A stretch of 64,000 nucleotides of DNA from positions 399,652,001-399,716,000 of the forward strand of contig OZ024741.1 of assembly GCA_964016885.1 (NCBI GenBank), written 5' to 3'. Origin of the DNA: Eledone cirrhosa. Its lineage: Eukaryota. The first letter of the stretch is position 1, and each line of letters opens with the position of its first letter. The position numbers and the translations under genes are program-made. A model generated the notes under the pieces. That model was not told the DNA's origin and made no database searches. It worked only from the letters and a program-made list of their open reading frames with translations. Of the stretch, positions 12,749-58,224 are shown one piece after another.

Positions 12749-12852
12749 TTATTGTGGTATTGCCCTCATCGTCGTAGATTCAACTCCAGAGCAAACGTTA
12801 CAGGCGCAGGAAACAATTCGGCTAAAGTTGTGTCTGTGAGTTTTTCTATTTT
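12749..12852 (-). CDS. Mucin terminal exon L: cystine knot part 2 and stop
   Basis: tttcttatag|AAAAT...; ENRKTHRHNFSRIVSCACNVCSGVESTTMRAIPQ*. Supplies CxC and brings the knot to 11 Cys. Confidence 0.85.
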
Positions 12853-13148
12853 CTATAAGAAATAAAAGCAACAAAATAGGAATAAAGAAAAATAATTGAT
12901 TTCTCCGAAGTCCCCGACTATGGACCCCCTTGATAATGAATGGTAAATCCGAAATATTTAGGGACTAATAAATTGCTACGGTAATTTTCAGTCATTCTTT
13001 TCCTTTTTTTATTTTCCTTCTTTTCCCACTTTTTCCTTTCTATCTCATCTCTCTCAATCTCTATGTAAGTGAGATGCAGACCTTGGGCATACAGAACAGG
13101 TTCTGGTTTGGTTTTTACAGATGGATGCCCTTCCTAACACCCACCATA

Positions 13149-13890
13149 TTTACAGTGTGTGCTGGGTGCTTTTTTTGTCGTGATACTTACACGACCACTT
13201 TACAGTGTGTGCTGGGTGCTTTTTTGTCATGATACTTTCACGACCACTTTATAGTGTGGGCTGGGTACTTTTTGTCAGGACACCTACACAACCACTTTAC
13301 AGTGTGTGCTGGGTGCTTTTTGTCATGATACTTTCACGACCACTTTACAGTGTGGGCTGGGTACTTTTTGTCATGACACCTACACGACCACTTTACAGTG
13401 TGGGCTGGGTGATTTTAGTCGAGACACCTACATAACCACTTTACAGTGTGGGCTGCGTGCTTTTTGTCGTGACACCTACACGACTACTTTACAGTGTGGG
13501 CTGGGTGCTTTTTGTCGGGACACCTACATAACCACTTAACAATGTGGGCTGGGTACTTTTTGCCGTGGCACCAAGATGATCACTTTACCGTGTGTGCTGG
13601 AGATATTTGTTGTGACATCTACACGACCACTTTACAGTGTGGACTGGGTACTTTTTGCTGTGTCTCCTAAAAGAGAACTTTACAATGTGGGCTGGGTACT
13701 TTTTATTATGACACCTACATGACCACTTTAGGGTGTGGGCTTGGCCCTTTTTGTCGAGACACCAACATGACAAATTTACTGTGTGGGCAGAGCCCTTTTT
13801 ACCGTGACACCTACATGACCAGTTTACAGTGTGGGCAGAGTCCTTTTTACCATGATGCCTACACGACCAGTTTACAGTGTGGGCTGGGCA
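13149..13890. repeat. 48-bp minisatellite (~15 copies) derived from the RTE/SINE 3' segment
   Basis: Unit ctttacagtgtgggctgggtactttttgtcatgacacctacacgacca. It follows ggatgcccttcctaacac, the same context as the RTE-A 3' UTR. Confidence 0.85.
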
Positions 13891-13930
13891 GACTGTTATA
13901 TTATATATAAAATTAAATAACTCTACATAC

Positions 13931-14137
13931 CACACATCACCATCACAGAATCTTGTTTAACTTCAGCCGGAGCGCAGCAACGACATACACTCTGTATGTT
14001 ACCATCTTCCCTTGTGCGAGCATAAGAGTTACATGATCCACGACATTCCATAACTTTAACTGGATGAACTGCTTCACATCCCATAACTTTTAGTGTAATA
14101 TTTACTGCAAATGGTGAGCACTGGTCTTTTGGAGCTT
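13931..14137 (-). CDS. Mucin exon K: C-terminal cystine knot, part 1
   Basis: tcttctcttgtag|AAGCT ... TGTG|gtatgt; 207 nt; contains CxGxC (CRGSC) and CRCC motifs. Confidence 0.9.
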
Positions 14138-14439
14138 CTACAAGAGAAGAAGAGCACAATTTTATAAGATAATAAACATTAAATATATCGATTTTTAAAC
14201 CAAAATGTATTTAAAAGAAAAATAATTTTTATTTTTCGCTCTAACATAGAGGATACGTAAATGCATTCGTGAGTTTTATATCAAATAATAATATTTGATT
14301 CGTTTGCAAGCTAACACCTCGCCTATGTTTTATAGATGACCATCACCATCCTCTCTGTCACCGCTAAAACAAAAGGATGGTAATGGTCATCTATAAAAGC
14401 ATAGCCTAATGAATCGAATATTATTATTATTCGATATAA

Positions 14440-14655
14440 GGACGGTGGATTGACAGGATCGGTAGAGGGTCGGACGCCATGCTTGGCAGCATAGAATTAC
14501 AGCCCTTTACGTTCTGAGTTCAAATCCCACCGAGGTTAGCTTTGCCTTTCATTCTTACGGGGTCGATAAAATAATGCACCACTAATACACTGGGGTAATT
14601 TACTCGACTATTCCGTCACCCAAAACTGCTGGCCTTGTGCCTCTAGTAGAAATCA
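14440..14655 (+). mobile_element. tRNA-derived SINE family A
   Basis: A-box-like ggtggattg(a/g)cag..tcggtag, B box gagttcaaatccc, central gcctttcat.cttacggggtcgataaa; TSD attattattc(g/a)atataa. Other copies or fragments near 12370, 16290, 17225, 19200, 29810, 31370, 35990, 43200, 43650, 57165, 60130 and 63279. Confidence 0.8.
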
Positions 14656-14744
14656 TTATTATTCAATATAAAAACTCATTAATACTTATATTTTTTCAAT
14701 TAATATAATAAATAGAAAAGAAAGTGACGAGTTGGCAGTGTTTT

Positions 14745-15080
14745 CATCATCATCATCATTTCATTTTATGTCCACTTTTCCCTGCTTGCAAGGGTGGGAC
14801 GGGAACTGATTCTGGCTTGATTTCTACAGCTGAATGCCCTTCCTAACACCAACCTCATTTACAGTGAGTGCTGGGTGCTTTTTTGCCGTGGCACCTCCAC
14901 GACCACTTTGCAGTGGAATGATAGGGACCCCAGTCCCTATCATCTCATTTCTACAGCTGAGTAAACTGGAGCAATGTGAAATAAAGTGTCTTGCTCAAGG
15001 AAACAACACATCACCCGGTCTGAGGATTGAACTCACAACCTTTCGATTGCAAGGCCAATGCTCTAACCATTAAGCCATGT
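14745..15080 (-). mobile_element. tRNA/CORE-like SINE family B with RTE-C-type tail
   Basis: Head tggcttaatggttagagc...gagttcaatcctc; CORE-like ccttgagcaagacacttta; tail cccgtcccacccttgcaagcagggaaaag...(atg)n. Confidence 0.8.
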
Positions 15081-15145
15081 TATATAGAATGATTTTTGGT
15101 ATGTTATTCTACTTTCTACACACTGTGTTCAAATCATGCTAAGGT

Positions 15146-15610
15146 CAATCATCATCATCATCATCACCGTTTTACGTCCGTTCTTCCATGCTAGCATGGA
15201 TTAGACGGGTTGTCCTGTTGTGAGCAATGTCTGGTCGGCTGACCATGCCTTGCTCATACAGGAACTGATCATGGCTTGATTCCTACAGCTGGATGCCCTT
15301 CCTAACACCAACCTCATTTACAGTGAGTGCTGGGTGCTTTTTTCCGTGGTGCCTACACGTCCACTTTACAGTGTGGGCTGGGTTCTTTTTTTCCGTGGCA
15401 CCTCCACGACCACCTTGCAGTGGGAGGGTGTGGGGGCATATTGTCTATATGCTTCAGCTTGTACCCATGGGAGGTCGGGTACTCTGTATTACTGCATGAC
15501 GCCAGAGGTCACGGTCGTGTGTCATCGCCTTTGAGAGGTGTAATTGGGTAAGGTCGGCTTTTATCACCTCATCCCAGGTCTTCTTGGGTCTCCCCACTCC
15601 GCAGTTTCCA
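15146..15610 (-). mobile_element. 5'-truncated RTE-A LINE 3' end
   Basis: Near-identical to the reverse complement of 22250-22710; (gat)n tail. Confidence 0.85.
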
Positions 15611-17586: not shown

Positions 17587-17594
17587 TATATATA

Positions 17595-17911: not shown

Positions 17912-17958
17912 TACTTCTTAGTTAACTACTGGATAAATTATATAGTTTGGGGGCTTAC

Positions 17959-18207
17959 CTGTAGAAGGTGGGACAGTAGTTTGAGTGGAAGTAGACTGAG
18001 GAGATGTAACAGTTGTTGCATTACTGGTTACTGTTGTTTCTGTAGATGATGGTACCATAGATGATGACACTGCAGTTGTTGTCATGCTCTCTGATGTCAT
18101 CTGAGAAGGACTATATGTAGTTGTTGTACCAGTTTGTTGGCTTGTTAATCTCGATGTAGAAATATGAGATGTCCCAGATATTGTTGTAGACTTAGATGTT
18201 GTCTTAG
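17959..18207 (-). CDS. Mucin exon J: Ser/Thr-rich exon
   Basis: catatttcag|CTAAG ... ACAG|gtaagc; 249 nt, phase 1-1; AKTTSKSTTISG...QTTVPPST. Confidence 0.85.
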
Positions 18208-18372
18208 CTGAAATATGAAATATAATAACAAATTGTATTTTTGACCTCATTCAAACTTTTGGGTGTGAAATCAATAATCTATTGAACCACTGATAACTTA
18301 GTTATCAGCGTTTATTGAGCTACAATTTTCTTTTACTATTGTTGTCAACAACTGGCATGTAGGACCACATAA

Positions 18373-20107: not shown

Positions 20108-20191
20108 CTGTGATTAATGTGCTTCCTGACAATGTTGTTGGGGCTGGAGATGATTTCTTTTCACCTGTTGGAGACGTTGTTTTAACAGTAC
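20108..20191 (-). CDS. Mucin exon I: short PTS exon
   Basis: ttttttttttccag|GTACT ... ACAG|gtaaga; 84 nt, phase 1-1; GTVKTTSPTGEKKSSPAPTTLSGSTLIT. Confidence 0.78.
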
Positions 20192-24035: not shown

Positions 24036-24047
24036 ATTGATAAATAC

Positions 24048-27000
24048 CTGATGTGGTTGGATATGGAGTGGCAACAGTAGAAGTAGAGGAAACTGGAGTT
24101 GCAGAGGACGGTGTTGATGATGGTGCAATTGATGCTGTTGTTGTAGGAGGTGTTGTTGTTGATGGAGCAGCTGTTTCAACTGATGATGGTGGAGCAGCTG
24201 TCGTCTTTTCAGCTTGTGTTGTTGTAACTGTTGCTGCAGTTGTTGACAATGATGATGCTATTGTTGTAGCTGATGGGAGTACAATAGTTGTAGCAGTAAC
24301 AGTAGGAGTACCTGTTGGTGCAGCAGTCGTTATTGCTGATGTTGATGTAATTGCAGTTGTTGTTACTGATGGCACAGTTGTTGTTGGTGCTGATGTGGTT
24401 TCTGCTGTTGTTTGTGCTGGTGGTGCAGTTGTTGTAGTTGGTGCAGTTGTTGTTGTTACTGGTGGTGTGACTGATCTTGTTACTGCTGATGATGCAGCTG
24501 TTGTTGATGGTGCAGCTGTTGTTGATGGTGCGGCTGTTGTTTCTGCAGCTGTTGTTTGTGGTGATGGTGCAGCTGTTGTTGATGGTGCGGCTGTTGTTTC
24601 TGCAGATGTTGCAGCTGTTGTTTGTGGTGATGGTGCAACTGTTGTTGATGGTGCGGCTGTTGTTTCTGCAGATGTTGCAGCTGTTGTTTGTGGTGATGGT
24701 GCAGCTGTTGTTGTTGTTACTGGAGGTGTCACTGATGTTGTTACTGCTGATGGTGGAGCTGTTGTTGATGGTGCAGCTGTTGTTTCTGCAGATTGTGGTG
24801 ATGGTGCAACAGTTGTTGTTACTGGTGGTGTGACTGATGTTGTTACTGTTGATGGTGCAGCTGATGTTGTTGTTGATAGTACACCTGTTGTTTTTACTGG
24901 TGGTGTCACTGATGTTGTTACTGCTGATGGTGCAGCTGTTGTTTCTGCTGGTGTTGCAGCTGTTGTCTGTGCAGTTGTTGATGGTGCAGCTGTTGTTATA
25001 GCAGATATTGCAGCTGTTTGTGTTGATGGTGCAGTTGTTGTTGATGGTGCAGCTGTTGTTGATGGTGGGGCTGTTGTTTCTGCAGGTGTTGCAGCTGTTG
25101 TTTGTGCTGACAGTGCAGTTGTTGTTGATAGTGCAGCTGTTGTTGTTGTTGTTACTGGTGGTACTGCTGATGTTGTTGATGGTGCAGCTGGTGTTGTTGT
25201 TGATAGTGTAGCTGTTGTTGTTTCTGCTGTTGGTGCAGCTGTTGTTACAGCAGATGTTGCTGTTGGTGTAGCTGTTGTTGATGGTACAGCTGTTGTTGTT
25301 GTTACTGGTGGAGCAACTGATGTTGTTAATGGTGATGGTGCAGCTGATGTTGTTGATAGTGCACCTGTTGTCGTTGATAGTGAAGCTGTTGTTGTTTCTG
25401 CTGTTGGTGCAATAGTTGTTGCAGAGTGTGCCCCTGTTGAAGCTGTTGTAGTGACAGTTGGTGCAACAGTTGTTTCTGCTGGGGTTTCAGCTGTTGTCTG
25501 TGCTGATGGTGCAGTTGTTGTTGATGTTACTGGTGGTGCGACTGATGTTGTTACTGTAGTTGTTGCTGTTGGTGAGGTAGTAATCGGGGTTACTGGTGTT
25601 GCAGCTGGTGTTGTTGATGGTGCAGCTGATGTTGTTGTTGATAGTTCAGCTGTTGTTGTTGTTGTTTCTGTAGGTGAAACAGTTGTCTTAGTAGGAACAG
25701 TAGTTTTTGTTGTTGGTGCAGCTGTGACTGTTGGTACTGAGGTACTTTCTCCAGTTGGTTTACCAGTTGTTGGTACAGCTGTGGCTGTTGTTTTAGGGGT
25801 ACTTTCTACAGTTGGTTGACCAGTTGTTGGTACAGATGTCACTGTTGTTTTAGGGGTACTTTCTCCAGTTGGTTGACCAGTTGTTGGTACAGCTGTGGCT
25901 GTTAATTTAGGGGTACTTTCTACAGTTGGTTGACCAGTTGTTGGTACAGCTGTGGCTGTTGATTTAGGGGTACTTTCTACAGTTGGTTGACCAGTTGTTG
26001 GTACAGATGTCACTGTTGTTTTAGGGGTACTTTCTACAGTTGGTTGACCAGTTGTTGGTACAGCTGTGGCTGTTGGTTTTAAGGTACTTTCTACAGTTGG
26101 TTGACCAGTTGTTGGTACAGCTGTGGCTGTTGGTTTAGGTGTACTTTCTACAGTTGGTTGACCAGTTGTTGGTACAGCTGTGGCTGTTGTTTTAGGGGTA
26201 CTTTCTACAGTTGGTTTACCAGTTGTTGGTACAGATGTCACTGTTGTTTTAGGGGTACTTTCTACAGTTGGTTTACCAGTTGTTGGTACAGCTGTGGCTG
26301 TTGATTTAGGGGTACTTTCTACAGTTGGTTGACCAGTTGTTGGTGAAGATGTCACTGTTGTTTTAGGGGTACTTTCTACAGTTGGTTGACCAGTTGTTGG
26401 TACAGCTGTGACTGTTGTTTTAGAGGTACTTTCTACAGTTGGTTGACCAGTTGTTGGTACAGCTGTTGCTGTTGGTACTGAGGTACTTTCTACAGTTGGT
26501 TGACCAGTTGTTGGTACAGCTGTGGCTGTTGTTTTAGGGGTACTTTCTACAGTTGGTTGAACAGTTGTTGGTACAGCTGTGGCTGTTGGTACTGAGGTAC
26601 TTTCTACAGTTGGTTGACCAGTTGTTGGTACAGCTGTGGCTGTTGGTACTGAGGTACTTTCTACAGTTGGTTGACCAGTTGTTGGTACAGCTGTGGCTGT
26701 TGTTTTAGGGGTACTTTCTCCAGTTGGTTGACCAGTTGTTGGTACAGCTGTGGCTGTTGTTTTAGGGGTACTTTCTACAGTTGGTTGAACAGTTGTTGGT
26801 ACAGCTGTGACTGTTGTTTTAGGGGTACTTTCTACAGTTGGTTGACCAGTTGTTGGTACAGCTGTGGCTGTTGGTTTTGAGGTACTTTCTACAGTTGGTT
26901 GACCAGTTGTTGGTACAGCTGTGGCTGTTGTTTTAGGGGTACTTTCTCCAGTTGGTTTACCAGTTGTTGGTACAGATGTCACTGTTGTTTTAGGGGTACT

Positions 27001-28394
27001 TTCTACAGTTGGTTGACCAGTTGTTGGTACAGCTGCGACTGTTGTTTTAGGGGTACTTTCTACAGTTGGTTTGCCAGTTGTTGGTACAGCTGTGGCTGTT
27101 GATTTAGGGGTACTTTCTACAGTTGGTTGACCAGTTGTTGGTGAAGATGTCACTGTTGTTTTAGGGGTACTTTCTACAGTTGGTTGACCAGTTGTTGGTG
27201 AAGATGTCACTGTTGTTTTAGGGGTACTTTCTACAGTTGGTTGACCAGTTGTTGGTACAGCTGTGACTGTTGTTTTAGAGGTACTTTCTACAGTTGGTTG
27301 ACCAGTTGTTGGTACAGCTGTGGCTGTTGGTTTAGGTGTACTTTCTACAGTTGGTTGACCAGTTGTTGGTACAGCTGTGGCTGTTGTTTTAGGGGTACTT
27401 TCTACAGTTGGTTGACCAGTTGTTGGTACAGCTGTGGCTGTTGGTTTAGGTGTACTTTCTACAGTTGGTTGACCAGTTGTTGGTACAGCTGTGGCTGTTG
27501 TTTTAGGGGTACTTTCTAAAGTTGGTTGACCAGTTGTTGGTACAGCTGTGACTGTTGTTTTAGGGGTACTTTCTACAGTTGGTTGACCAGTTGTTGGTAC
27601 AGCTGTGGCTGTTGTTTTAGGTGTACTTTCTACAGTTGGTTGACCAGTTGTTGGTACAGCTGTGGCTGTTGTTTTAGGGGTACTTTCTACAGTTGGTTGA
27701 CCAGTTGTTGGTACAGCTGTGGCTGTTGTTTTAGGTGTACTTTCTACAGTTGGTTGACCAGTTGTTGGTACAGCTGTGGCTGTTGTTTTAGGTGTACTTT
27801 CTACAGTTGGTTGACCAGTTGTTGGTACAGCTGTGGCTGTTGTTTTAGGGGTACTTTCTACAGTTGGTTGACTAGTTGTTGGTACAGCTGTGGCTGTTGG
27901 TTTTGTGGTACTTTTAACTGTAGAAGTTGTTGTTACTGGTGGTACTGCTGATGTTGTTACTACTGATGGTGCAGCTGTTGTTGTTGTTACTGGTACAGCT
28001 GTTGTTTCAGCAGGTGTTGCAGCTGTTGTTTGTGCTGACAGTGCAGTTGCTGTTGATGGTGCAGCTGTTGTTGAAGGTGCAGTTGTTGTTTTGGGTGTAC
28101 TTTCTATAGTTGGTTGACCAGTTGTTGTTACAGCTGTTGCTGTTGTTTTAGGGGTACTTTCTACAGTTGGTTGACCAGTTGTTGGTATCATTGTTACAGT
28201 AGATGCCTCTGTTGTTGCTGCAGTTGTTGTTGGAGTACCTGTTGTTGGTGCAGCAGTTGTTGGTGCTAGCGTCGTTGTTGCAGTTGTTGGTGCTAACGTC
28301 GTTGTTGCAGTTGTTGTTACTGCTGATGGTGCAGCTGTTGTTGTTGTTGGTAGCACAACTGTTGTTACTTCCCTGGTCACTGCTGTAGTTGAAA
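24048..28394 (-). CDS. Mucin exon H: giant PTS (O-glycosylation) exon, 4347 nt
   Basis: Lies inside ORF 23566..28482. Acceptor tattttgatag|TTTCA, donor TCAG|gtattt; phase 1-1. Thr/Ala/Pro/Ser/Val-rich and Cys-free. Confidence 0.9.
25720..27910 (-). repeat. Coding VNTR, 57-bp / 19-aa unit (TATAVPTTGQPTVESTPKT), ~38 copies, plus 2 near 28090-28190
   Basis: Direct periodicity in DNA and translation. Confidence 0.92.
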
Positions 28395-30317: not shown

Positions 30318-30764
30318 CTTCTGTCAGATTAAAACAAGCTTTCACTTGCAGCCAGACTAGATAGTCTTCTGGTTTATTTACTCCTACAACACGGGGAGAT
30401 TCCAATATAACTTTCACAGCCGTTGCTTTTGGATAGCTGTTCAGTATAAGTGGTGCAGAAATGTTGGTGCCTCCCATTATTTTATGGAATTTCAAAGAGC
30501 CAGGTATTTGCACAAGAACTGTAACTCTTTCTACTGAGCCCAAGAAAACAACCTCAAGAAGTTCAACACCTTCAGGTTTATCAGTGAGTTTTATAGTGAC
30601 ACTCGGTTTGGGTTCTGAAGAAGATTTTGGTACTGGAACCCTCCATCCAGATAAGCTTGGTCTTATACTTGAAACAGGAGAATCTGGTGTGTCAGGACTT
30701 GATGATATGAAGGAATCAGGGATGATACTTATGTCATTCATACCTTCTCTGACCTCACAAGGTG
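30318..30764 (-). CDS. Mucin exon G: 149-aa discoidin-like module, copy 3
   Basis: ctcttttcag|CACC ... GAAG|gtaagg; 447 nt, phase 1-1. Confidence 0.9.
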
Positions 30765-33431: not shown

Positions 33432-33527
33432 CTGAGGTCGTTACCGGTTTAGTTACAACACTTGTACCCACAGGTGTTGTTGTTACAGCAGTTTCAAATG
33501 GAGTTGTTATAATTGGTGTTGTAGTTG
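33432..33527 (-). CDS. Mucin exon F: PTS linker, paralogous to exon C
   Basis: ttatcacatcag|CAACT ... TCAG|gtaaat; 96 nt, phase 1-1; ATTTPIITTPFETAVTTTPVGTSVVTKPVTTS. Confidence 0.75.
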
Positions 33528-37608: not shown

Positions 37609-37650
37609 CACTTGTTACAGGACGAGTAGATGGAAGAACTGTAGCTGCAC
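37609..37650 (-). CDS. Mucin exon E: 42-nt PTS mini-exon
   Basis: tttcttcttttattag|GTGCA ... AGTG|gtaagt; phase 1-1; GAATVLPSTRPVTS. Confidence 0.7.
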
Positions 37651-41400: not shown

Positions 41401-42052
41401 GTAGCCACGGAGTAGGCAGACCCAGAAAAACCTGGGACAAGCTGATAAATTCCGACCTCACACACTTACACCTCTCCAAGACAATGTCACTGGACCGAGA
41501 CCTTTGGCGGTACTCAGTAATCGAGAAGACCCGCCTTACCTAAATACACAGTAAAACCTACTACAGTCAGTAGGCATCTCTAACAAAATACACCCCCGTT
41601 CCACCACCCCCACCCCATCCACACCGCCCCTTTCAATGTAAAGTTATGTTGGTGCCGCGCCATCGAGGCCGAAACAAATGAGATCGTGTAGGTGTCACGA
41701 CAAAAAAACACACAGTCCACGCTATAATGTGGCCGTGTAGGCAACACGGTAAAAACCTCCCAGCCCCACACTGTAAATGTGGTTGGTGTTAGGAAGGGCA
41801 TCCAGCTGTAGAAAACCCGCGAGACAGTCCACGCTGTAATGTGGTCGTGTAGGCAACACGGTAAAAACCTCCCAGCCCCACACTGTAAATGTGGTTGGTG
41901 TTAGGAAGGGCATCCAGCCGTACAAAACCCGCCAGACAGTCCTATGCGAGCAAGACAACCACTCTTGCCTCAAGTGGGAAAACTCCCGTCCAAACCCATG
42001 CAAGCGTGAAATATGGACGTTAAACGATGATGATGATGATGATGATGATGAT
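38431..42052 (+). mobile_element. RTE-clade LINE 'RTE-B', near full-length ORF (APE endonuclease C-half, RT, PHD-like finger), interrupted in the endonuclease
   Basis: 38431-38576 encodes IAGDLNGHVG...RNEEGSRILEFC...ICN and resumes at 39065 with TNFKK...SQVDYIL. RT motifs QFGF, FVDLEKAFD, GVHQGSVLSP, LLYADD. ORF runs to 41543; (gat)n tail. Confidence 0.95.
38577..39064 (-). mobile_element. Antisense 5'-truncated RTE-B-family copy nested in RTE-B
   Basis: Reverse complement of 41426-42050 with indel differences. Confidence 0.9.
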
Positions 42053-42710: not shown

Positions 42711-43157
42711 CTACTGTCACATTAAAGCAAGCCTTTATCTGCAGCCAGACAAGATAATCTTCTGGTTTACTTCCATCTTCAATACTTCGAGATTCTAAAA
42801 TAACCTTTACAGCTGTTGCCTTTGGATAATTGTTCAGTATGAGGGATTCTGAAATGTTGGTACCTCCCACAGAGTTCTGGAACTCCTCAGAGCCAGGTAA
42901 TTGTACAAGAATTGTTACCTTACTAACACTACCCCACATGTCAACCTCAAGTAGTTCAACACCTTCAGGTTTATCAGTGAGTTTTATTGTGACACTTGGT
43001 TTGGGTTCTGAAGGGGATTTTGGAACTGGAACCCTCCATCCAACCAAGCCTGGTCTGATACTTGAAACAGGATAATCTGGTGTGTCAGGACTTGATGATA
43101 TGAAGGAATCAGGGATGATACTTATGTCATTCATACCTTCTCTGACCTCACAAGGTG
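42711..43157 (-). CDS. Mucin exon D: 149-aa discoidin-like module, copy 2
   Basis: ctcttttcag|CACC ... GTAG|gtaagt; 447 nt, phase 1-1; paralogous to exons B and G. Confidence 0.9.
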
Positions 43158-45167: not shown

Positions 45168-45195
45168 ATCACTTAAAATACATGTTTTTATTTAC

Positions 45196-45327
45196 CTGTT
45201 GTAGGTGACGTTGTAGTAAATTCAGTTACAGAGGTTGGTGGAGCCCAAGTTGTTGATTGAGGTGTTGTTGTTACAACAGTTCCTGTGATAGAAGGAGTTG
45301 TAACAGTTGTAGGACTTACTGATGTCA
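45196..45327 (-). CDS. Mucin exon C: PTS linker
   Basis: ttttgttaatag|TGACA ... ACAG|gtaaat; 132 nt, phase 1-1; VTSVSPTTVTTPSITGTVVTTTPQSTTWAPPTSVTEFTTTSPTT. Not in the ORF track. Confidence 0.8.
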
Positions 45328-45429: not shown

Positions 45430-48400
45430 CTAGCTGGACCCGTGAAAAAATTCAAGGATAATCCGCTCTCTCTAAATATATATCCCCCCCTTTCTCTCTA
45501 TATAAATCCATCCCTTTCTCTCTATATATATGTTAACACTCCTTTCTCTATATTATAACCCCCTCTCTCTATTATAAACCTCTCTCTCTATATTATAAAA
45601 CCCTCTCTTCAAATATAGTATAACCTCCTCTCTCTATAGTATAACCGCCTCTCTCTATATTATAACCCCCTTCTCTCTATATATAACAACCCATCCCCTT
45701 CCCTATGTTATAACCCCTCTCTCTACATATATTATAACCCCACCTCCTCTCTCTCCTTTCCAAACGTTGCTACGCTCTTTGATTTTCTTTCGCTGTAGAT
45801 TGTTTACCACCCCCTTTCCATTGTTTTAGCACGTCTCACGGACGTCATTCGAATTTTATTTATAATACTGAAAGTGTGACACACACGGTCTGACGTACGG
45901 TACGTGGGTATTAACCTTTACTGTAAGTGTGACACACACGGTCTGACGTACGGTACGTGAGTATTAACCTTTACTGTAAGTGTGACACACACGGTCTGAC
46001 GTACGGTACGTAGGTATTAACCTTTACTGAAAGTGTGACACAGACGGTCTGACGTACGGTACGTAGGTATTAACCTTTACTGAAAGTGTGACACACACGG
46101 TCTCCCGTACAGTAGGTAGGTATTAACCTTTACTGAAAGTGTGACACACGGTCTGACGTACGGTACGTAGGTATTAACCTTTACTGAAAGTGTGACACAC
46201 ACGGTCTGACGTACGGTACGTAGGTATTATCCTTTACTGAAAGTGTGACACACACGGTCTGACGTACGGTACGTAGCTATTAACCTTTACTGAAAGTGTG
46301 ACACAGACGGTCTGACATACAGTACGTAGGTATTAACCTTTACTGAAAGTGTGACACACACGGTCTGACGAACGGTACGTAGGTATTAACCTTTACTAAA
46401 AGTGTGACACAGACGGTCTGGCGTACGGTACGTAGGTATTAACCTTTACTGAAAGTGTGACACACACGGTCTGACGTATGGTACATAGGTATTAACCTTT
46501 ACTGAAAGTGTGACATACGGTCTGAAGTACGGTACGTAGGTATTATCCTTTACTGAAAGTGTGACACACACGGTCTGACGTATGGTACGTAGGTATTAAC
46601 CTTTACTGAAAGTGTGACACACACGGTCTGACGTATGGTACGGAGGTATTAACCTTTACTGAAAGTGTGACACACACGGTCTGACGTATGGTACGTAGGT
46701 ATTAACCTTTACTGAAAGTGTGACACACACGGTCTGACGTACAGTACGTAGGTATTAACCTTTACTGAAAGTGTGACACACACGGTCTGACGTACGGTAC
46801 GTAGGTATTAAGCTTTACAGAAAGTGTGACACACACGGTCTGACGTACAGTACGTAGGTATTAACCTTTACTGAAAGTGTGACACACACGGTCTGACGTA
46901 CGGTACGTAGGTATTAACCTTTACTGAAAGTGTGACACCCGGTCTGACGTACAGTACGTAGGTATTAACCTTTACTGAAAGTGTGACACACACGGTCTGA
47001 CGTATGGTACATAGGTATTAACCTTTACTGAAAGTGTGACACACACGGTCTGACGTACGGTACGTAGGTATTAACCTTTACTGAAAGTGTGACACACACG
47101 GTCTGACGTATGGTACATAGGTATTAACCTTTACTGAAAGTGTGACACACACGGTCTGACGTACAGTACGTAGGTATGAACCTTTACTGAAAGTGTGACA
47201 CACTGTCTGACGTACGGTACGTAGGTATTAACCTTTACTGAAAGTGTGACACACACTGTCTGACGTACGGTACGTAGGTATTAACCTTTACTGAAAGTGT
47301 GACACACACGGTCTGACGTACGGTACGTAGGTATTAACCTTTACTGAAAGTGTGACACACACGGTCTGACGTACGGTACGTAGGTATTAACCTTTACTGA
47401 AAGTGTGGCACACACGGTCTGACATACGGTACGTAGGTATTAACCTTTACTGAAAGTGTGACACACACGGTCTGACGTACGGTACGTAGGTATTAACCTT
47501 TACTGAAACTGTGATACATACGGTCTGACGTACGGTACGTAGGTATTAACCTTTACTGAAAGTGTGACACGCACGGTCTGACGTATGGTACGTAGGTATT
47601 AAACTTTACTGAAAGTGTGACACACACGGTCTGACGTACGGTACGTAGGTATTAACCTTTACTGAAAGTGTGACACACACGGTCTGACGTACAGTACGTA
47701 GGTATTAACCTTTACTGAAAGTGTGACACACACGGTCTGACGTACGGGACGTAGGTATTAACCTTTACTGAAAGTGTGACACACACGGTCTGACGTACAG
47801 TACGTAGGTATTAACCTTTACTGAAAGTGTGACACACGGTCTGACGTACAGTACGTAGGTATTAACCTTTACTGAAAGTGTGACACAGACGGTCTGACGT
47901 ACGGTACGTAGGTATTAACCTTTACTGAAAGTGTGACACACACGGTCTGACGTATGCTACGTAGGTATTAACCTTTATTGAAAGTGTGACACACACGGTC
48001 TGACGTATGGTACGTAGGTATTAACCTTTACTGAAAGTGTGACACACACGGTCTGGCGTACGGTACGTAGGTATTAACCTTTACTGAAAGTGTGACACAC
48101 ATTGTCTGACGTATGGTACATAGGTATTAACCTTTACTGAAAGTGTGACACACACGGTCTGACGTACGGTACGTAGGTTTTAACCTTTACTGAAAGTGTG
48201 ACACACACGGTCTGACGTACAGTACGTAGGTATTAATCTTTACTGAAAGTGTGACACACACGGTCTGACGTACAGTACGTCGGTATTAAGCATTACTGAA
48301 AGTGTGACACACACGGTCTGACGTACGGTACGTAGGTATTAACCTTTACTGAAAGTGTGACACATACGGTCTGACGTACGGTACGTAGGTATTAACCTTT

Positions 48401-51400
48401 ACTGAAAGTGTGGCACACACGGTCTGACGTATGGTACGTAGGTATTAAACTTTACTGAAAGTGTGACACACACGGTCTGACGTACGGTACGTAGGTATTA
48501 ACCTTTACTGAAAGTGTGACACACACGGTCTGACGTACAGTACGTAGGTATTAACCTTTACTGAAAGTGTGACACACACGGTCTGACGTACAGTACGTAG
48601 GTATGAACCTTTACTGAAAGTGTGACACACACGGTCTGACGTACGGTACGTAGGTATTAACCTTTACTGAAAGTGTGACACACACTGTCTGACGTACGGT
48701 ACGTAGGTATTAACCTTTACTGAAAGTGTGAAACACACGGTCTGACGTACGGTACGTAGGTATTAACCTTTACTGAAAGTGTGACACACACGGTCTGACG
48801 TACGGAACGTAGGTATTAACCTTTACTGAAAGTGTGACACACACGGTCTGACGTACAGTACGTAGGTATTAATCTTTACTGAAAGTGTGACACACACGGT
48901 CTGACGTACAGTACGTAGGTATTAACCTTTACTGAAAGTGTGACACAGACGGTCTGACGTACAGTACGTCGGTATTAAGCATTACTGAAAGTGTGACACA
49001 CACGGTCTGACGTACGGTACGTAGGTATTAACCTTTACTGAAACTGTGATACATACGGTCTGACGTACGGTACGTAGGTATTAACCTTTACTGAAAGTGT
49101 GGCACACACGGTCTGACGTATGGTACGTAGGTATTAAACTTTACTGAAAGTGTGACACACACGGTCTGACGTACGGTACGTAGGTATTAACCTTTACTGA
49201 AAGTGTGACACACACGGTCTGACGTACAGTACGTAGGTATTAACCTTTACTGAAAGTGTGACACACACGGTCTGACGTACGGTACATAGGTATTAACCTT
49301 TACTGAAAGTGTGACGCACACGGTCTGACGTATGCTACGTAGGTATTAACCTTTATTGAAAGTGTAACACACACGGTCTGACGTATGGTACGTAGGTATT
49401 AACCTTTACTGAAAGTGTGACACACACCGTCTGACGTATGGTACGTAGGTATTAAACTTTACTGAAAGTGTGACACACACGGTCTGACGTATGGTACATA
49501 GGTATTAACCTTTACTGAAACTGTGACACACACGGTCTGACGTATGGTACATAGGTATTAACCTTTACTGAAAGTTGACACACACGGTCTGACGTATGGT
49601 ACATAGGTATTAACCTTTACTGAAAGTGTGACACACACGGTCTGAGGTACGGTACGTAGGTATTAACCTTTACTGAAAGTGTGACACACACGGTCTGACG
49701 TACGGTACGTAGGTATTAATCTTTACTTAAAGTGTGACACACACGGTCTGACGTATGGTACGTAGGTATTAACCTTTACTGAAAGTGTGACACACACGGT
49801 CTGACGTATGGTACATAGGTATTAACCTTTACTGAAGATGTGACACACACGGTCTGACGTATGGTACGTAGGTATTAACCTTTGCTGAAAGTGTGACACA
49901 CACGGTCTGACGTATGGTACGTAGGTATTAACCTTTACTGAAAGTGTGACACACACGGTCTGACGTATGGTACGTAGGTATTAACCTTTACTGAAAGTGT
50001 GACACACACGGTCTGACGTATGGTACATAGGTATTAACCTTTAATGAAAGTGTGACACACACGGTCTGACGTATGGTACGTAGGTATTAACCTTTACTGA
50101 AAGTGTGACACACATGGTCTGACGTACGGTACATAGGTATTAACCTTTATTGAAAGTGTGACACACACGGTCTGACGTATGGTACGTAGGTATTAACCTT
50201 TACTGAAAGTGTGACACACACGGTCTGACGTATGGTACGTAGGTGTTAACCTTTACTGAAAGTGTGACACACACGGTCTGACGTATGGTACATAGGTATT
50301 AACCTTTACTGAAAGTGTGACACACACGGTCTGACGTACGTTACGTAGGTATTAATCTTTACTGAAAGTGTGAAACACGGTCTGACGTACAGTACGTAGG
50401 TATTAACCTTTACTGAAAGGGTGACACACACGGTCTGGCGTACGGTACGTAGGTATTAACCTTTACTGAAAGTGTGACACACACGGTCTGACGTACAGTA
50501 CGTAGGTATTAATCTTTACTTAAAGTGTGACACACACGGTTTGCCGTACGGTACGTAGGTATTAACCTTTACTGAAAGTGTGGCACACACGGTCTGACGT
50601 ATGGTACGTAGGTATTAAACTTTACTGAAAGTGTGACACACACGGTCTGACGTACGGTACGTAGGTATTAACCTTTACTGAAAGTGTGACACACACGGTC
50701 TCACGTACAGTACGTAGGTATTAACCTTTACTGAAAGTGTGACACACACGGTCTGACGTACGGTACGTAGGTATTAACCTTTATTGAAAGTGTGACACAC
50801 ACGGTCTGACGTACAGTACGTAGGTATTAACCTTTACTGAAAGTGTGACACACACGGTCTGGCGTACGGTACGTAGGTATTAACCTTTACTGAAAGTGTG
50901 ACACACATTGTCTGACGTATGGTACATAGGTATTAACCTTTACTGAAATTGTGACACACACGTTCTGACGTACGGTACGTAGGTATTAACCTTTACTGAA
51001 AGTGTGACACACACGGTCTGACGTATGGAACGTAGGTATTAACCTTTACTGAAAGTGTGACACACACGGTCTGACGTATGGTACATAGGTATTAACCTTT
51101 ACTGAAAGTGTGACACACACGGTCTGACGTACGGTACATAGGTATTAACCTTTACTGAAAGTGTGGCACACACGGTCTGACGTATGGTACGTAGGTATTA
51201 AACTTTACTGAAAGTGTGACACACACGGTCTGACGTACGGTACGTAGGTATTAACCTTTACTGAAAGTGTGACACACACGGTCTGACGTATGGTACGTAG
51301 GTATTAACCTTTACTGAAAGTGTGACACACACGGTCTGACGTATGGTACGTAGGTATTAACCATTACTGAAAGTGTGACACACACGGTCTGACGTACGGT

Positions 51401-54400
51401 ACGTAGGTATTAACCTTTACTGAAAGTGTGACACACACGGTCTGACGTATGGTACGTAGGTATTAACCTTTACTGAAAGTGTGACACACACGGTCTGACG
51501 TATGGTACGTAGGTATTAACCATTACTGAAAGTGTGACACACACGGTCTGACGTACGGTACGTAGGTATTAACCTTTACTGAAAGTGTGACACAGACGGT
51601 CTGACGTACGGTACGTAGGTATTAACCTTTACTGAAAGTGTGACACACACGGTCTGGCGTATGCTACGTAGGTATTAACCTTTATTGAAAGTGTGACACA
51701 CACGGTCTGACGTATGGTACGTAGGTATTAACCTTTACTGAAAGTGTGACACACACGGTCTGACGTACGGTACGTAGGTATTAACCTTTACTGAAAGTGT
51801 GACACACACGGTCTGACGTATGGTACGTAGGTATTAACCTTTACTGAAAGTGTGACACACACGGTCTGACGTATGGTACGTAGGTATTAACCATTACTGA
51901 AAGTGTGACACACACGGTCTGACGTACGGTACGTAGGTATTAACCTTTACTGAAAGTGTGACACAGACGGTCTGACGTACGGTACGTAGGTATTAACCTT
52001 TACTGAAAGTGTGACACACACGGTCTGGCGTATGCTACGTAGGTATTAACCTTTATTGAAAGTGTGACACACACGGTCTGACGTATGGTACGTAGGTATT
52101 AACCTTTACTGAAAGTGTGACACACACGGTCTGACGTACGGTACGTAGGTATTAACCTGTACTGAAAGTGTGACACACACGGTCTGGCGTATGGTACATA
52201 GGTATTAACCTTTACTGAAAGTGTGACACACACGGTCAGACGTACGGTACGTAGGTATTAACCTTTACTGAAAGTGTGACACATACGGTCTGACGTATGG
52301 TACGTAGGTATTAAACTTTACTGAAAGTGTGACACACACGGTCCGACGTATGGTACATAGGTATTAACCGTTACTGAAAGTGTGACACACACGGTCTGAC
52401 GTATGGTACATAGGTATTAACCTTTACTGAAAGTGTGACACACACGGTCTGACGTACGGTACGTAGGTATTAACCTTTACTGAAAGTGTGACACACACGG
52501 TCTGACGTATGGAACGTAGGTATTAACCTTTACTGAAAGTGTGACACACACGGTCTGACGTATGGTACATAGGTATTAACCTTTATTGAAAGTTTGACAC
52601 ACACGGTCTGACGTACGGTACATAGGTATTAACCTTTACTGAAAGTGTGACACACACGGTCTGACGTATGGTACGTAGGTATTAACCTTTACTGAAAGTT
52701 TGACACACACGGTCTGACGTACGGTACGTAGGTATTAACCTTTACTGAAAGTGTGACACACACGGTCTGACGTACAGTACGTAGGTATTAAACTTTACTG
52801 AAAGTGTGACACACACGGTCTGACGTATGGTACGTAGGTATTAACCTTTACTGAAAGTGTGACACACACGGTCTGACGTATGGTACATAGGTATTAACCT
52901 TTACTGAAAGTGTGACACACACGGTCTGACGTATGTTACGTAGGTATCAACCTTTACTGAAAGTGTGACACACACGGTCTGACATATGGTACGTAGGTAT
53001 TAACCTTTACTGAAAGTGTGACACACACGGTCTGGCGTATGGTACGTAGGTATTAACCTTTACTGAAAGCGTGACACACACGGTCTGAGGTATGGTACGT
53101 AGGTATTAACCTTTACTGAAAGTGTGACACACATGGTCTGACGTACGGTACATAGGTATTAACCTTTACTGAAAGTGTGACACACACGGCCTGACGTACA
53201 GTACGTAGGTATTAACCTTTACTGAAAGTGTGACACACGGTCTGACGTACAGTACGTAGGTATTAACCTTTACTGAAAGTGTGACACAGACGGTCTGACG
53301 TACGGTACGTAGGTATTAACCTTTACTGAAAGTGTGACACACACGGTCTGACGTATGCTACGTAGGTATTAACCTTTATTGAAAGTGTGACACACACGGT
53401 CTGACGTATGGTACGTAGGTATTAACCTTTACTGAAAGTGTGACACACACGGTCTGACGTACGGTACGTAGGTATTAACCTTTACTGAAAGTGTGACACA
53501 CACGGTCTGACGTATGGTACATAGGTATTAACCTTTACTGAAAGTGTGACACACACGGTCAGACGTACGGTACGTAGGTATTAACCTTTACTGAAAGTGT
53601 GACACACACGGTCTGACGTATGGTACGTAGGTATTAACATTTACTGAAAGTGTGACACACACGGTCTGACGTATGGTACATAGGTATTAACCGTTACTGA
53701 AAGTGTGACACACACGGTCTGACGTATGGTACATAGGTATTAACCTTTACTGAAAGTGTGACACACACGGTCTGACGTACGGTACGTAGGTATTAACCTT
53801 TACTGAAAGTGTGACACACACGGTCTGACGTATGGAACGTAGGTATTAACCTTTACTGAAAGTGTGACACACACGGTCTGACGTATGGTACATAGGTATT
53901 AACCTTTACTGAAAGTGTGACACACACGGTCTGACGTACGGTACATAGGTATTAACCTTTACTGAAAGTGTGACACACACGGTCTGACGTATGGTACGTA
54001 GGTATTAACCTTTACTGAAAGTGTGACACACACGGTGTGACGTATGGTACATAGGTATTAACCTTTACTGAAAGTGTGACACACACGGTCTGACGTACGG
54101 TACGTAGGTATTAACCTTTACTGAAAGTGTGACACACACGGTCTGACGTATGGTACGTAGGTATTAACCTTTACTGAAAGTGTGACACACACGGTCTGAC
54201 ACACGGTCTGACGTACGGTACGTAGGTATTAACCTTTACTGAAAGTGTGACACACACGGTCTGACGTATGGTACGTAGGTATTAACCTTTACTGAAAGTG
54301 TGACACACACGGTCTGACGTATGGTACGTAGGTATTAACCATTACTGAAAGTGTGACACACACGGTCTGACGTATGGTACGTAGGTATTAACCTTTACTG

Positions 54401-55785
54401 AAAGTGTGACACACACGGTCTGACGTATGGTACATAGGTATTAACCTTTACTGAAAGTGTGACACACACGGTCTGACGTATGTTACGTAGGTATCAACCT
54501 TTACTGAAAGTGTGACACACACGGTCTGACGTATGGTACGTAGGTATTAACCTTTACTGAAAGTGTGACACACACGGCCTGACGTATGGTACGTAGGTAT
54601 TAACCTTTACTGAAAGTGTGACACACACGGTCTGAGGTATGGTACGTAGGTATTAACCTTTACTGAAAGTGTGACACACATGGTCTGACGTACGGTACAT
54701 AGGTATTAACCTTTACTGAAAGTGTGACACACACTGTCTGACGTATGGTACGTAGGTATTAACCTTTACTGAAAGTGTGACACACACGGTCTGACGTATG
54801 GTACATAGGTATTAACCTTTACTGAAAGTGTGACACACACGGTCTGACGTACGGTACGTAGGTATTAACCTTTACTGAAAGTGTGACACACACGGTCTGA
54901 CGTATGGTACGTAGGTATTAACCTTTACTGAAAGTGTGATACACACGGTCTGACGTATGGTACATAGGTATTAACCTTTACTGAAAGTGTGACACACACG
55001 GTCTGACGTACGGTACGTAGGTATTAACCTTTACTGAAAGTGTGACACACACGGTCTGACGTATGGTACATAGGTATTAACCTTTACTGAAAGTGTGACA
55101 CACACGGTCTGACGTACGGTACGTAGGTATTAACCTTTACTGAAAGTGTGACACACACGGTCTGACGTATGGTACGTAGGTATTAACCTTTACTGAAAGT
55201 GTGATACACACGGTCTGACGTATGGTACATAGGTATTAACCTTTACTGAAAGTGTGACACACACGGTCTGACGTACGGTACGTAGGTATTAACCTTTACT
55301 GAAAGTGTGACACACACGGTCTGACGTATGGTACGTAGGTATTAACCTTTACTGAAAGTGTAACACACACGGTCTGACGTATGGTACATAGGTATTAACC
55401 TTTACTGAAAGTGTGACACACACGGTCTGACGTATGGTACGTAGGTATTAACCTTTACTGAAAGTGTGACACATACGGTCTGACGTATGGTACATAGGTA
55501 TTAACCTTTACTGAAAGTGTGACACACACGGTCTGACGTATGGTACGTAGGTATTAACCTTTACTGAAAGTGTGACACATACGGTCTGACGTATGGTACA
55601 TAGGTATTAACCTTTACTGAAAGTGTGACACACACGGTCTGACGTACGGTACGTAGGTATTAACCTTTACTGAAAGTGTGACACACACGGTCTGACGTAT
55701 GGTACGTAGGTATTAACCTTTACTGAATGTGTGACACACACAGTCTGACGTACGGTACATAAGTATTAACGTATTAATATATAGA
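45430..55785 (-). mobile_element. Non-autonomous Helitron-like element carrying a giant tandem array
   Basis: Minus strand reads A|TCTATATATTAATAC ... ATCCTTGAA-TTTT-TTCACGGGT-CCAG-CTAG|T: 5' TC, subterminal hairpin, 3' CTAG, AT target, no TSD. Confidence 0.7.
45866..55770. repeat. 53-bp satellite, ~187 copies (tactgaaagtgtgacacacacggtctgacgtacggtacgtaggtattaacctt)
   Basis: Period 53, highly homogeneous, no spacers. Confidence 0.97.
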
Positions 55786-55976
55786 TAGTTATATATTTAA
55801 TTGTGTCATCATAGCTTTATAGAATATTGGTCTCTTCACCATAAACATACAATTGTTGCTGAGCTAGCTAAGATGTCTCTAAGAGCTCACTCTGTCAGTT
55901 AGAAGCAACAGCCATACCTCCCTTAAATTGCATGTTACCATATTAAAACAACAAAGTATGACAAATTATAATTTAT

Positions 55977-56196
55977 CTCTTTAGCATTTAAACTTGCCAT
56001 ATCCAGCCAGAATTATCTTACTCTTTCTGTTCAAACAAGCCGTAATTTGCCGTTCATATTGACATTAAGGTATTGTTCTCAAAATAAATAACAATAAAAT
56101 TTCATAAATTTGATATTATGTATGATAATTATGTGAGGTAAAGCTTTTACCACAAAAATACAATAGTATATATAGAGTAATGTAAATGGTAAAGGA
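55977..56196 (+). mobile_element. Degenerate piggyBac-type MITE copy
   Basis: ctctttagcattta ... taaatggtaaagga|ttaa. Confidence 0.7.
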
Positions 56197-56497
56197 TTAA
56201 ACCTGGCAGAGCACATTTCGTATCCAAGTTTGAACACAGCCAATTTCTTCCAGAGAAGGTGTGAAAGAGTGCGAGAGAAGAAATGAAAAAGAGATATAGA
56301 AGAAGAATTGACCCCAGTATTAGACTGGTATTTTTTAGGTTTTATCAACGTTGAAAGATAAAGTTGGCCTCAGCAAAATTTGAATAGACAGAACACAGTG
56401 TCAAAACAAATACTACAAAGTATTCTATTCAACATTCTAATAACTCTACAAATTTGTCACCTGTTTGCTAGGGATACAAATATTCAATCAGTCTTAC

Positions 56498-56944
56498 CTG
56501 TTGTTAGATTAAAACATGCTTTCACTTGGAGCCAGACAAGATAATCTTCTGGTTTATTTTCTTCTACAATGCCTGGAGATTCTAAAATAACCTTTACAGC
56601 TGTTGCCTTTGGATAATTGTTCAGTATGAGGGATCCTGTAATGTTGGTACCTCCCACAGAGTTCTGGAACTCCTCAGAGCCAGGTAATTGTACAAGAATT
56701 GTTACCTTACTAATACTACCCCACATATCAACCTCAAGTAGTTCAACACCTTCAGGTTTATCAGTGAGTTTTATAGTGACACTTGGTTTGGGTTCTGAAG
56801 GAGATTTTGGAACTGGAACCCTCCATCCAACCAAGCCTGGTCTGATACTTGAAACAGGATAATCTGGTGTGTCAGGACTTGATGATATGAAGGAATCAGG
56901 GATGATACTTATGTCATTCATACCTTCTCTGACCTCACAAGGTG
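56498..56944 (-). CDS. Mucin exon B: 149-aa discoidin/F5-8C-like module, copy 1
   Basis: tttttcag|CACCTTGT ... ACAG|gtaaga; 447 nt, phase 1-1; APCEVREGMNDISIIPDSFISSS...WLQVKACFNLTT. Confidence 0.9.
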
Positions 56945-57920
56945 CTGAAAAACAATACATACATTTTATGTAATTACAGATTACACTTTAAAGAATATCA
57001 AGCATATTAATGTGGAGGGATGTAGCTTAGTGGTTAGGTTGTTCAGTTCACAATTGTAAGGTTGTGAGTTTGATTCCAGTCCACACCAAGTGACAGGTTG
57101 TCTCCTTGAGCAAAACACTTTATTTCACATTGCTCCAATGGTCTGATCTCTTTCTTCTGTATTAATTATTTCTACTTTTGGCACAAGGCCAGCAATTATC
57201 CCAGTGTATTACTGATACTTTATTTTATCGACCCCGTAAGGATAAAAGGTAAAGTTAACCTTGGCAGGATTTGAACTGAGACCATAAAGGGCCGTAACTC
57301 ATTGCTGCAAAGCATGGCGTTCGACCCTCTACTGATACTGCCAATTATTAATGATACCAAAAGCTATAGTAACAGAATAAAATTATCTGTTGTTGAGGCC
57401 ACCTCACATTTCTCTACACCAGGAGAAGGTGAAGCCATCCTCTTTACTGTCACATGTATACTTACAGGGTGAATGGAGCATACCCACCTTAAAGAGAGGA
57501 CTGGGGCTTATTTTTGTGGCATCAGCTCTAACATACAGGGTGGACTAGCTATTTTTATTGTGGTACCAGTACTACCTCATCAGAACAGGCTGAATCAGCA
57601 CTACCCCATTTCAAAACTAGAATACTTATAGGGTCTTTGGCCAGGCTGGAGTGGTAGTGATGGGTGTGTGAGTTCAAAATGAGAGGGGAAGGTAAGCTAC
57701 ATTACTAAAACTAATGGATGAATTAGTCACTCAACTAATAGTAATCTTAAAATTATACTTTGGCATGTCCCATCTTATAGCTAAAACCTTCCCAGCCATC
57801 ACTGTTAACGAACATTTTCATCTGATCCTCATATTTCAACTTTTCAGCTGATCATCATATTTTTTTTGTTTTGCACATTTTCTTATGTTTAAATCTGATA
57901 ACAAAAATCTTGTTACATAC

Positions 57921-58224
57921 CTATTGTTGTTGTAAACATTGTTGAGCTGACACCAGTGGTTCCAGACACTACTGCTGTAGTAATAGGTGTCTCAGTAGCC
58001 ATGGAGTGAGGAGATGTATAATATGTTGATGATATGGGAGTTGTTGTTGCTAGAGTTGTAGAGATGGTGACATTTGGGCAATATGGACAACATTTTCCTG
58101 GATCTGTTATCCATGTACTGTTGTCACATGAAAGAGTCTCACAAGAAATTACTTCTGTAGACAAGGAACGACCAGGAAGACATTCAATTCTTTTACATGG
58201 TCCATCATTCCAGACTTCTCCAAT
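57921..58224 (-). CDS. Mucin exon A: VWC domain (lacking first Cys) plus PTS start
   Basis: Acceptor ttctatttcag|ATT (phase 0), donor ATAG|gtatgt. Encodes IGEVWNDGPCKRIECLPGRSLSTEVISCETLSCDNSTWITDPGKCCPYCPNVTISTT...; 304 nt. Confidence 0.85.

What the first reader, a model, noticed from the sequence alone, without database searches (positions are those of the whole stretch)
12749..58224. Invertebrate gel-forming mucin whose PTS region is punctuated by a triplicated, divergent 149-aa two-cysteine module
Seen: 12 exons give VWC-PTS-X-PTS-X-PTS-X-giant PTS-CTCK. X is always one 447-nt exon: C near the start, GMNDISIIPDSFISSS, a conserved W, alternating beta-strand patterns, C at the end, and N-glycan sequons. 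Known: F5/8 type C (discoidin) domains begin C..LGM.SG.IPD..ITASS and end L.GC; hemocytin and SCO-spondin contain them; MUC2/5AC/5B intersperse CysD domains in PTS; an 11-Cys CTCK dimerises vWF and mucins. Inference: X is a highly diverged discoidin-fold lectin or cross-linking module playing a CysD-like role. The knot follows PTS directly (MUC6-like), suggesting a poorly described molluscan mucus or egg-coat polymer.
Basis: partly seen in the sequence, partly recalled or inferred. Interest (0 to 1): 0.75.

Follow-up and report, generated by a model that had tools for sequence, protein, structure and literature searches.

The report
Octopus mucin studded with discoidin modules
This is the tail end of a giant mucin-type gene, likely from an octopus, whose long threonine-rich stretches are interrupted by a small repeated module that domain databases miss but that is predicted to fold like a discoidin and likely acts as a non-covalent sticker in mucus; similar proteins occur from flatworms to chitons, so it is a variant of a known invertebrate design.

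Summary
In detail: 12 minus-strand exons (12,749-58,224) read VWC-PTS-X-PTS-X-PTS-X-giant PTS-CTCK in one frame, with X a 447-nt, two-cysteine exon. X matches no Pfam family or PDB sequence. An alignment-based AlphaFold model (pLDDT 94) matches F5/8 type C (discoidin) domains, best neuropilin-1 (Z 15.2, rmsd 3.1 over 131 residues). The window is only the 3' end. Upstream exons over about 280 kb supply EGF repeats, three VWD-C8-TIL units (MUC2's dimer cysteine C1088 is kept), LDLa/VWC/TIL, three more X-like modules and two more giant PTS exons. There is no fourth VWD and no TSP1. The estimated size is over 7,600 aa. The order is colinear with a Macrostomum protein, and X also sits beside PTS in Argonauta, chiton and annelid proteins. 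Lang et al. 2016 already call F5_F8 characteristic of lophotrochozoan mucin-like proteins, so this is a variant of a known kind. What is new is a Pfam-invisible discoidin subfamily in the position of CysD. Splicing, tissue and ligand are untested: no RNA holder was listed.

The parts
59941..60042 (-).
   Evidence: tblastn with Argonauta P0001, 72% identity; splice sites phase 0-0
57921..58224 (-). VWC + short PTS exon
   Evidence: Pfam VWC E 1.2e-7; exon ends
56498..56944 (-). X1, 447-nt exon, predicted discoidin-fold module
   Evidence: 82% aa identity to X3; fold of X3
45196..45327 (-). PTS linker exon (132 nt)
42711..43157 (-). X2, 447-nt exon
   Evidence: 80% aa identity to X3
37609..37650 (-). 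Small 42-nt PTS exon, phase 1-1 (probable twelfth exon)
   Evidence: splice-site scan and sequence; no RNA support
33432..33527 (-). PTS linker exon (96 nt)
30318..30764 (-). X3, 447-nt exon; the copy that was modelled
   Evidence: AlphaFold pLDDT 94.2; Foldseek and VIA-align matches to F5/8C domains
24048..28394 (-). Giant PTS exon (4,347 nt, about 1,449 aa; 37% Thr, no Cys) with a 57-bp/19-aa repeat in 38.7 copies
20108..20191 (-). PTS exon (84 nt)
17959..18207 (-). PTS exon (249 nt)
13931..14137 (-). CTCK exon 1 (8 Cys)
   Evidence: Pfam DAN and Cys_knot; aligns with vWF CTCK, E 6e-4
12749..12852 (-). CTCK exon 2 (3 Cys) and stop codon; an AATAAA lies under 100 nt downstream

Best explanation
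These exons are the 3' end of a roughly 326-kb gene that likely encodes one giant secreted gel-forming mucin of an octopod, in which a repeated module predicted to have the discoidin (F5/8 type C) fold sits among the threonine-rich regions and likely serves as a non-covalent sticker. Shown in sequence: the domain order EGF repeats, three VWD-C8-TIL units, VWC/LDLa/TIL, X modules, three giant PTS exons, CTCK. Inferred from MUC2 and vWF: tail-to-tail disulfide dimers through CTCK and head-to-head linkage through the third D assembly, giving long polymers; O-glycosylation of PTS makes them hydrate. Inferred for X: its two cysteines pair within the domain, so it adds no covalent cross-links; a conserved loop region (residues 34-53) would bind another mucus component or glycan reversibly, the position CysD takes in MUC2/5. 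The symmetric phase 1-1 exon lets copies multiply, and they are partly homogenised within a species.
For: Single frame through the exons. Three VWD starts, three C8 and six TIL hits in order, no VWD between X and the knot. Colinear tblastn hits with Macrostomum PAA50248 from EGF to X, and with Argonauta P0001 across TIL-VWC-X. C8-3 aligns with MUC2 D3 at E 2e-14 and keeps G-G-D-C, the C1088 intersubunit cysteine of PMC6739602 (passages). CTCK dimer role: PMC10082768 (passages). Fold: pLDDT 94.2, pTM 0.89; Foldseek top rows DDR2, factor VIII C1/C2 and neuropilins, E about 1e-5; Z 15.2, rmsd 3.1, 131 aligned to neuropilin-1; Atlas model of the Dimorphilus copy TM 0.62-0.72 to F5/8C in 8 of 10 rows, a ninth at 0.58. 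Among 27 non-redundant X domains R34 is kept in 26, P53 in 25, C143 in 25, W40 in 21. pN/pS between copies is 0.36-0.39.
Against: No transcript evidence; co-splicing over 326 kb rests on phases and homologous gene models, which are themselves predictions. No signal-peptide exon was found (1 weak candidate of 51 tested). The TIL-3 exon aligns best with D1/D2-type TILs and shows no extra cysteine, so MUC2's second intersubunit cysteine (C1130) seems absent. A shared fold shows no function: non-lectin proteins (IFT25, PITH and DOC domains) score nearly as well. No His column and few aromatic columns are conserved in X, which gives no sign of a galactose site of the CBM32 type (site residues recalled). 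Some conserved positions (R34, W40) are probably structural (recalled from canonical discoidins).
Confidence: 0.62

Rival explanations
1. Same mucin and same fold, but X has lost ligand binding and is a compact, protease-resistant spacer that sets stiffness and spacing of the glycosylated chain.
For: No conserved His and few aromatic columns; no sequence match to Pfam F5_F8 in 27 of 27 alignment members; two N-glycan sequons per copy; copy number varies (4 to 7 in four named-source proteins).
Against: The stretch at residues 34-53 is conserved across mollusc, annelid and flatworm copies, and copies are under purifying selection; a pure spacer needs only a stable fold.
Confidence: 0.22
2. X is an outward-facing lectin or lipid-binding module that traps microbes or attaches to surfaces, making the protein a defence or adhesion protein (hemolectin-like or limpet pedal-mucus-like) and not mainly a gel scaffold.
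For: Discoidin I, CBM32 and factor V/VIII C domains are among the fold matches. A limpet VWD/C8/TIL/LDLa protein (P-vulgata_3) is expressed in pedal adhesive glands (PMC7333891, passages). Hemolectin carries F5_F8 domains (PMC4948705).
Against: More than 5,000 aa of PTS in three giant exons, and no trailing two VWD units as in hemolectin's 3+2 layout.
Confidence: 0.1
3. The upstream D-domain exons and the window's exons belong to two adjacent genes, or part of the array is an assembly duplication.
For: No RNA. The giant PTS exons at 24-28 kb and 79-86 kb are 84-91% alike over about 2.5-kb blocks. The crude exon chain has one phase break and misses known exons.
Against: Argonauta and Macrostomum models run across the same exons in the same order. 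X copies differ by 5-16% and their introns share little. Contigs from three public runs match the X3 exon region with no differences, though they may come from the assembled sample. Only one knot was seen, in the window.
Confidence: 0.06

Closest known systems
Lophotrochozoan F5_F8-containing gel-forming mucin-like proteins (Lang et al. 2016, PMC4948705; section 15 read whole, passages elsewhere, supplement part 20 as text only)
   Same: [quoted passage not shown]
   Different: The modules here are invisible to Pfam F5_F8; no CysD was detected; no further VWD units follow; X is repeated among very long PTS. No octopus occurs in the paper's searched supplement file. Fig. S4 is a picture, so its layouts could not be seen.
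Macrostomum lignano PAA50248 (hypothetical/VWFD-domain protein), Argonauta hians Ahia01_000590900, Liolophura 'mucin-2-like' XP_064614628, Dimorphilus DgyrCDS6479
   Same: X modules between Thr/Pro-rich linkers (4, 6 and 7 copies in the first three; one full and several partial in Dimorphilus). The Macrostomum protein is colinear from EGF through the three D units to X.
   Different: Database models only; no knot was detected in those scanned. The octopus gene adds three 4-7 kb PTS exons and shows the CTCK end.
Vertebrate MUC6/MUC19 and MUC2/5AC/5B
   Same: D1-D2-D3, PTS, CTCK; no D4, as in MUC6/MUC19 (PMC4948705 passage); C8-3 keeps the MUC2 C1088 motif; a compact domain punctuates PTS, as CysD does.
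   Different: The punctuating domain is a discoidin fold, not CysD; there are N-terminal EGFs, LDLa and many TIL/VWC modules; the C1130 equivalent seems absent.
SCO-spondin and insect hemolectin
   Same: Three D units with LDLa (SCO-spondin) or F5/8 domains (hemolectin), and a terminal knot in SCO-spondin.
   Different: 0 of 68 TSP1 matches in the genome fall in this locus; no 3+2 VWD layout; giant PTS.

Membership tests
Gel-forming mucin | Three N-terminal VWD-C8-TIL units | tested here: met
   7 VWD, 3 C8 and the matching TIL exon hits in order among 43 locus ORFs scanned; three VWD starts in the locus. Linkage to the window exons is inferred.
Gel-forming mucin | Long PTS domain | tested here: met
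   Three Cys-free open frames of about 1,450, 2,200 and 1,600 aa with 32-37% Thr.
Gel-forming mucin | C-terminal cystine knot | tested here: met
   11 Cys over two exons; aligns with vWF CTCK; Pfam DAN just over its cut-off, Cys_knot under its cut-off.
Gel-forming mucin | D3 intersubunit cysteines (MUC2 C1088 and C1130) | tested here: inconclusive
   C1088 equivalent kept; C1130 equivalent not seen in the TIL-3 exon.
Gel-forming mucin | Signal peptide | tested here: inconclusive
   A crude first-exon scan found no convincing candidate; the Macrostomum homologue begins with a hydrophobic stretch (by eye).
Gel-forming mucin | Expressed, O-glycosylated, forms polymeric gel | not testable with these tools
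   No RNA holder was listed.
F5/8 type C (discoidin) domain | Beta-sandwich fold closed by cysteines at both ends | tested here: met
   Predicted model only; Cys2 and Cys143.
F5/8 type C (discoidin) domain | Sequence match to Pfam PF00754 | tested here: not met
   0 of 27 alignment members; neither of 2 genome matches is in the locus; no PDB sequence hit at E 10. X is a structural, not a Pfam-level, member.
F5/8 type C (discoidin) domain | Ligand binding (glycan, lipid or protein) | not testable with these tools
   Only conservation was examined.
MUC2/5-type mucin | CysD (Mucin2_WxxW) within PTS | tested here: inconclusive
   No hit among the ORFs scanned; the genome search rang nowhere, controls included. 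X itself has a different predicted fold.
SCO-spondin | Numerous TSP1 repeats | tested here: not met
   0 of 68 genome TSP1 matches in the locus, while other VWD loci have several.
Hemolectin/hemocytin | 3+2 VWD structure | tested here: not met
   No VWD downstream of the third unit.

The most novel reading that the evidence does not exclude
X defines an unannotated, spiralian-wide discoidin subfamily that independently took over the job of vertebrate CysD: a reversible cross-linker repeated along the mucin PTS, whose copy number, tuned by exon duplication and conversion, sets the mesh and toughness of mollusc, annelid and flatworm mucus.
Probability: 0.25. Interest if true: 0.65.

Novelty: new variant of a known kind. 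Interest (0 to 1): 0.4.

Why it matters
Invertebrate mucus polymers are poorly annotated: octopus skin-mucus proteomics lists only labels such as mucin-19-like and SCO-spondin (PMC11431876, passages). This locus gives a near end-to-end layout of one such gene and shows that a domain missed by Pfam recurs in mucin-like proteins of cephalopods, a chiton, an annelid and a flatworm. It extends the F5_F8 statement of Lang et al. 2016 and supplies a small, single-exon, well-folded domain that can be expressed to ask what replaces CysD outside vertebrates. It does not overturn anything known.

Tried and rejected
Single-sequence AlphaFold of X3 gave pLDDT 37.8 and was not used. Pfam and PDB sequence searches with X found nothing relevant. 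RNA: no RNA holder listed; the three runs are contigs of one sample that cover introns, so they say nothing on splicing. Homodimer prediction for X returned 'no answer' (score 0.00, alignment not used), which is not evidence either way. The Atlas could not read the window's own X or P0004. Word-indexed homologue searches were shallow (1, 6 and 1 hits). A direct profile comparison of X with a canonical F5/8 sequence was not obtained, so X-to-discoidin homology rests on predicted structure. A complete upstream gene model was not obtained; the chain is crude and incomplete. The first (signal-peptide) exon was not found. A short repeat pattern search gave no match and was dropped. SCO-spondin and hemolectin orthology were rejected. 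An egg-coat role was neither supported nor excluded (search listing only). Literature searches listed no paper describing this module or gene; one search returned 0 papers. The library lacks most subscription journals.
Full report
Observation. On the minus strand, 11 exons between 12,749 and 58,224 join into a single frame of 2,287 codons. A 42-nt phase 1-1 PTS exon at 37,609-37,650 makes twelve. The order is VWC (Pfam E 1.2e-7), PTS, X, PTS, X, PTS, X, a 4,347-nt PTS exon, two short PTS exons and an 11-cysteine knot that aligns with vWF CTCK. Each X exon is 447 nt with two cysteines and two sequons.

The gene is much larger than the window. The window lies at G000:C2:399,652,001-399,716,000. 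I fetched 400 kb upstream; positions below continue the window's numbering. Of 43 locus ORFs chosen for a Pfam scan, the hits run 5' to 3' as follows: four EGF exons (332-320 kb); three VWD-C8-TIL units (312-266 kb); LDLa (193 kb); VWC (192 and 154 kb); TIL (170, 75 and 69 kb). Two further Cys-rich exons at 339 and 333.5 kb resemble the N-terminus of the Macrostomum homologue by eye. The X profile finds two more whole copies (121 and 110 kb) and a split one (211 kb, probably completed at 208.6 kb) among 4,901 minus-strand ORFs. Two more giant PTS frames lie at 94-99 and 79-86 kb and share the 19-aa repeat of the window's exon. A genome-wide VWD search gives three VWD starts here and none further downstream; none of 68 TSP1 matches falls in the locus. 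A crude exon chain sums to 5,303 aa upstream while missing most VWD and X exons; with the window's 2,301 aa the protein would exceed 7,600 aa, perhaps about 9,000 (my estimate). The signal-peptide exon was not found. That these exons form one transcript is inferred, not shown.

What X is. X has no Pfam or PDB sequence match. A full HMMER scan of 1.84 billion representatives gave 20 relatives at E up to 0.001. Of 20 proteins looked up (19 of these relatives and one), 3 have named clusters: Macrostomum lignano, Dimorphilus gyrociliatus and the chiton Liolophura ('mucin-2-like'). Argonauta hians gave the closest named hit, 65%, which points to an octopod source. With a 40-row alignment, AlphaFold reached pLDDT 94.2 and pTM 0.89, against 37.8 without. 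Foldseek's best rows are DDR2, factor VIII C domains and neuropilins. The exhaustive aligner gives Z 15.2, rmsd 3.1 over 131 residues to neuropilin-1, with discoidin I at 14.2 and CBM32 modules at 11-13. The Atlas's own model of the annelid copy also matches F5/8C in 9 of 10 rows.

Evolution of the module. X recurs beside Thr/Pro linkers: 6 copies in Argonauta, 7 in Liolophura, 4-5 in Macrostomum models. The Macrostomum protein is colinear with this locus from EGF through all three D units to X, so the layout is old and not an octopus invention. Within the window pN/pS is 0.36-0.39; the first 100 nt of the three exons differ at 0-1 sites, other 50-nt bins at up to 18, and flanking introns share little. 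The five complete Argonauta copies are almost identical to one another. This pattern suggests patchy conversion among copies (inference).

How it likely works. Gel-forming mucins dimerise tail to tail through the knot (PMC10082768, passages) and head to head through D3 cysteines C1088 and C1130 (PMC6739602, passages). Here C8-3 keeps the G-G-D-C motif of C1088, whereas TIL-3 looks like a D1/D2-type TIL without the extra cysteine; polymerisation is likely but may use one bond. PTS would be O-glycosylated (established for mucins, untested here). X has only the two fold-closing cysteines, so any cross-linking must be non-covalent. Conservation among 27 non-redundant copies concentrates at residues 7-19, 34-53, 75-77 and the C-terminal strand, with no His column. 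I therefore favour a sticker role through the 34-53 region over a classical galactose lectin, with an inert spacer as the main rival. No test here shows a ligand.

Comparison with what is known. Lang et al. 2016 state that F5_F8 is characteristic of lophotrochozoan mucin-like proteins and that CysD is inserted near it (section 15 read whole); their supplement file has no octopus and its Fig. S4 layouts are pictures I could not see. The gene meets the sequence criteria for a gel-forming mucin, lacks D4 like MUC6/MUC19, and fails the SCO-spondin (TSP1) and hemolectin (3+2 VWD) tests. A limpet VWD/C8/TIL/LDLa protein in pedal mucus (PMC7333891, passages) and SCO-spondin/mucin-19-like entries in octopus skin mucus (PMC11431876, passages) show such proteins are secreted in molluscs but cannot be tied to this gene. 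PMC10475054 and PMC5543218 were seen as passages only and added nothing specific. Seven literature searches listed no description of this module. Earlier notes of this scan describe similar octopus discoidin-mucins, two in this genome; they are unchecked leads, and my X searches did not hit those loci, so they are a different subfamily or too diverged.

Verdict. Real, correctly described, and correctly guessed as a discoidin fold in a gel-forming mucin. It is a new variant of a known lophotrochozoan kind, of moderate interest (0.40). The open and testable point is what the Pfam-invisible module binds.

Noticed in passing
window 1-8738: 39-bp satellite, about 225 copies, downstream of the gene; it gives long stop-free frames that are not evidence of coding.
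   Followed up: no
window 45866-55770: 53-bp satellite, about 187 copies at 94% match, filling most of the intron between X1 and the next PTS exon.
   Followed up: no
window 39033-41540 (+) and 61202-62962 (-): Long ORFs that look like LINE reverse transcriptases (label from my recall); similar copies recur in upstream introns.
   Followed up: no
L008:5152-L009:1931 and L008:19996 region, i.e. G000:C2:399731152-399737931 and 399745996-399751002: Two more giant PTS exons carry the same 19-aa repeat as window 24048-28394, although TIL/VWC and X exons lie between them: the repeat arrays appear homogenised across separate exons.
   Followed up: partly
L018:4545-5009 and L018:843-1115: Two exons whose pattern and position suggest a further, even more degenerate discoidin-like module; not hit by Pfam or by the X profile.
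   Followed up: partly
G000:C2:401497681-401499881 (+) and C2:396707649 (-): Other VWD genes lie within 2-3 Mb on the same chromosome; TSP1 matches at C2:401.84-401.87 Mb (+) may belong to the first.
   Followed up: no
G000:C2:167389385-167494551 and C4:319994026-320901495: Tandem, near-identical VWD exon pairs spaced tens to hundreds of kb apart, suggesting a repeated-VWD protein or gene array.
   Followed up: no
L039 region, G000:C2:400047888-400049180 (-): A 431-codon open frame about 57 kb upstream of the most 5' mucin exon found; unassigned.
   Followed up: no
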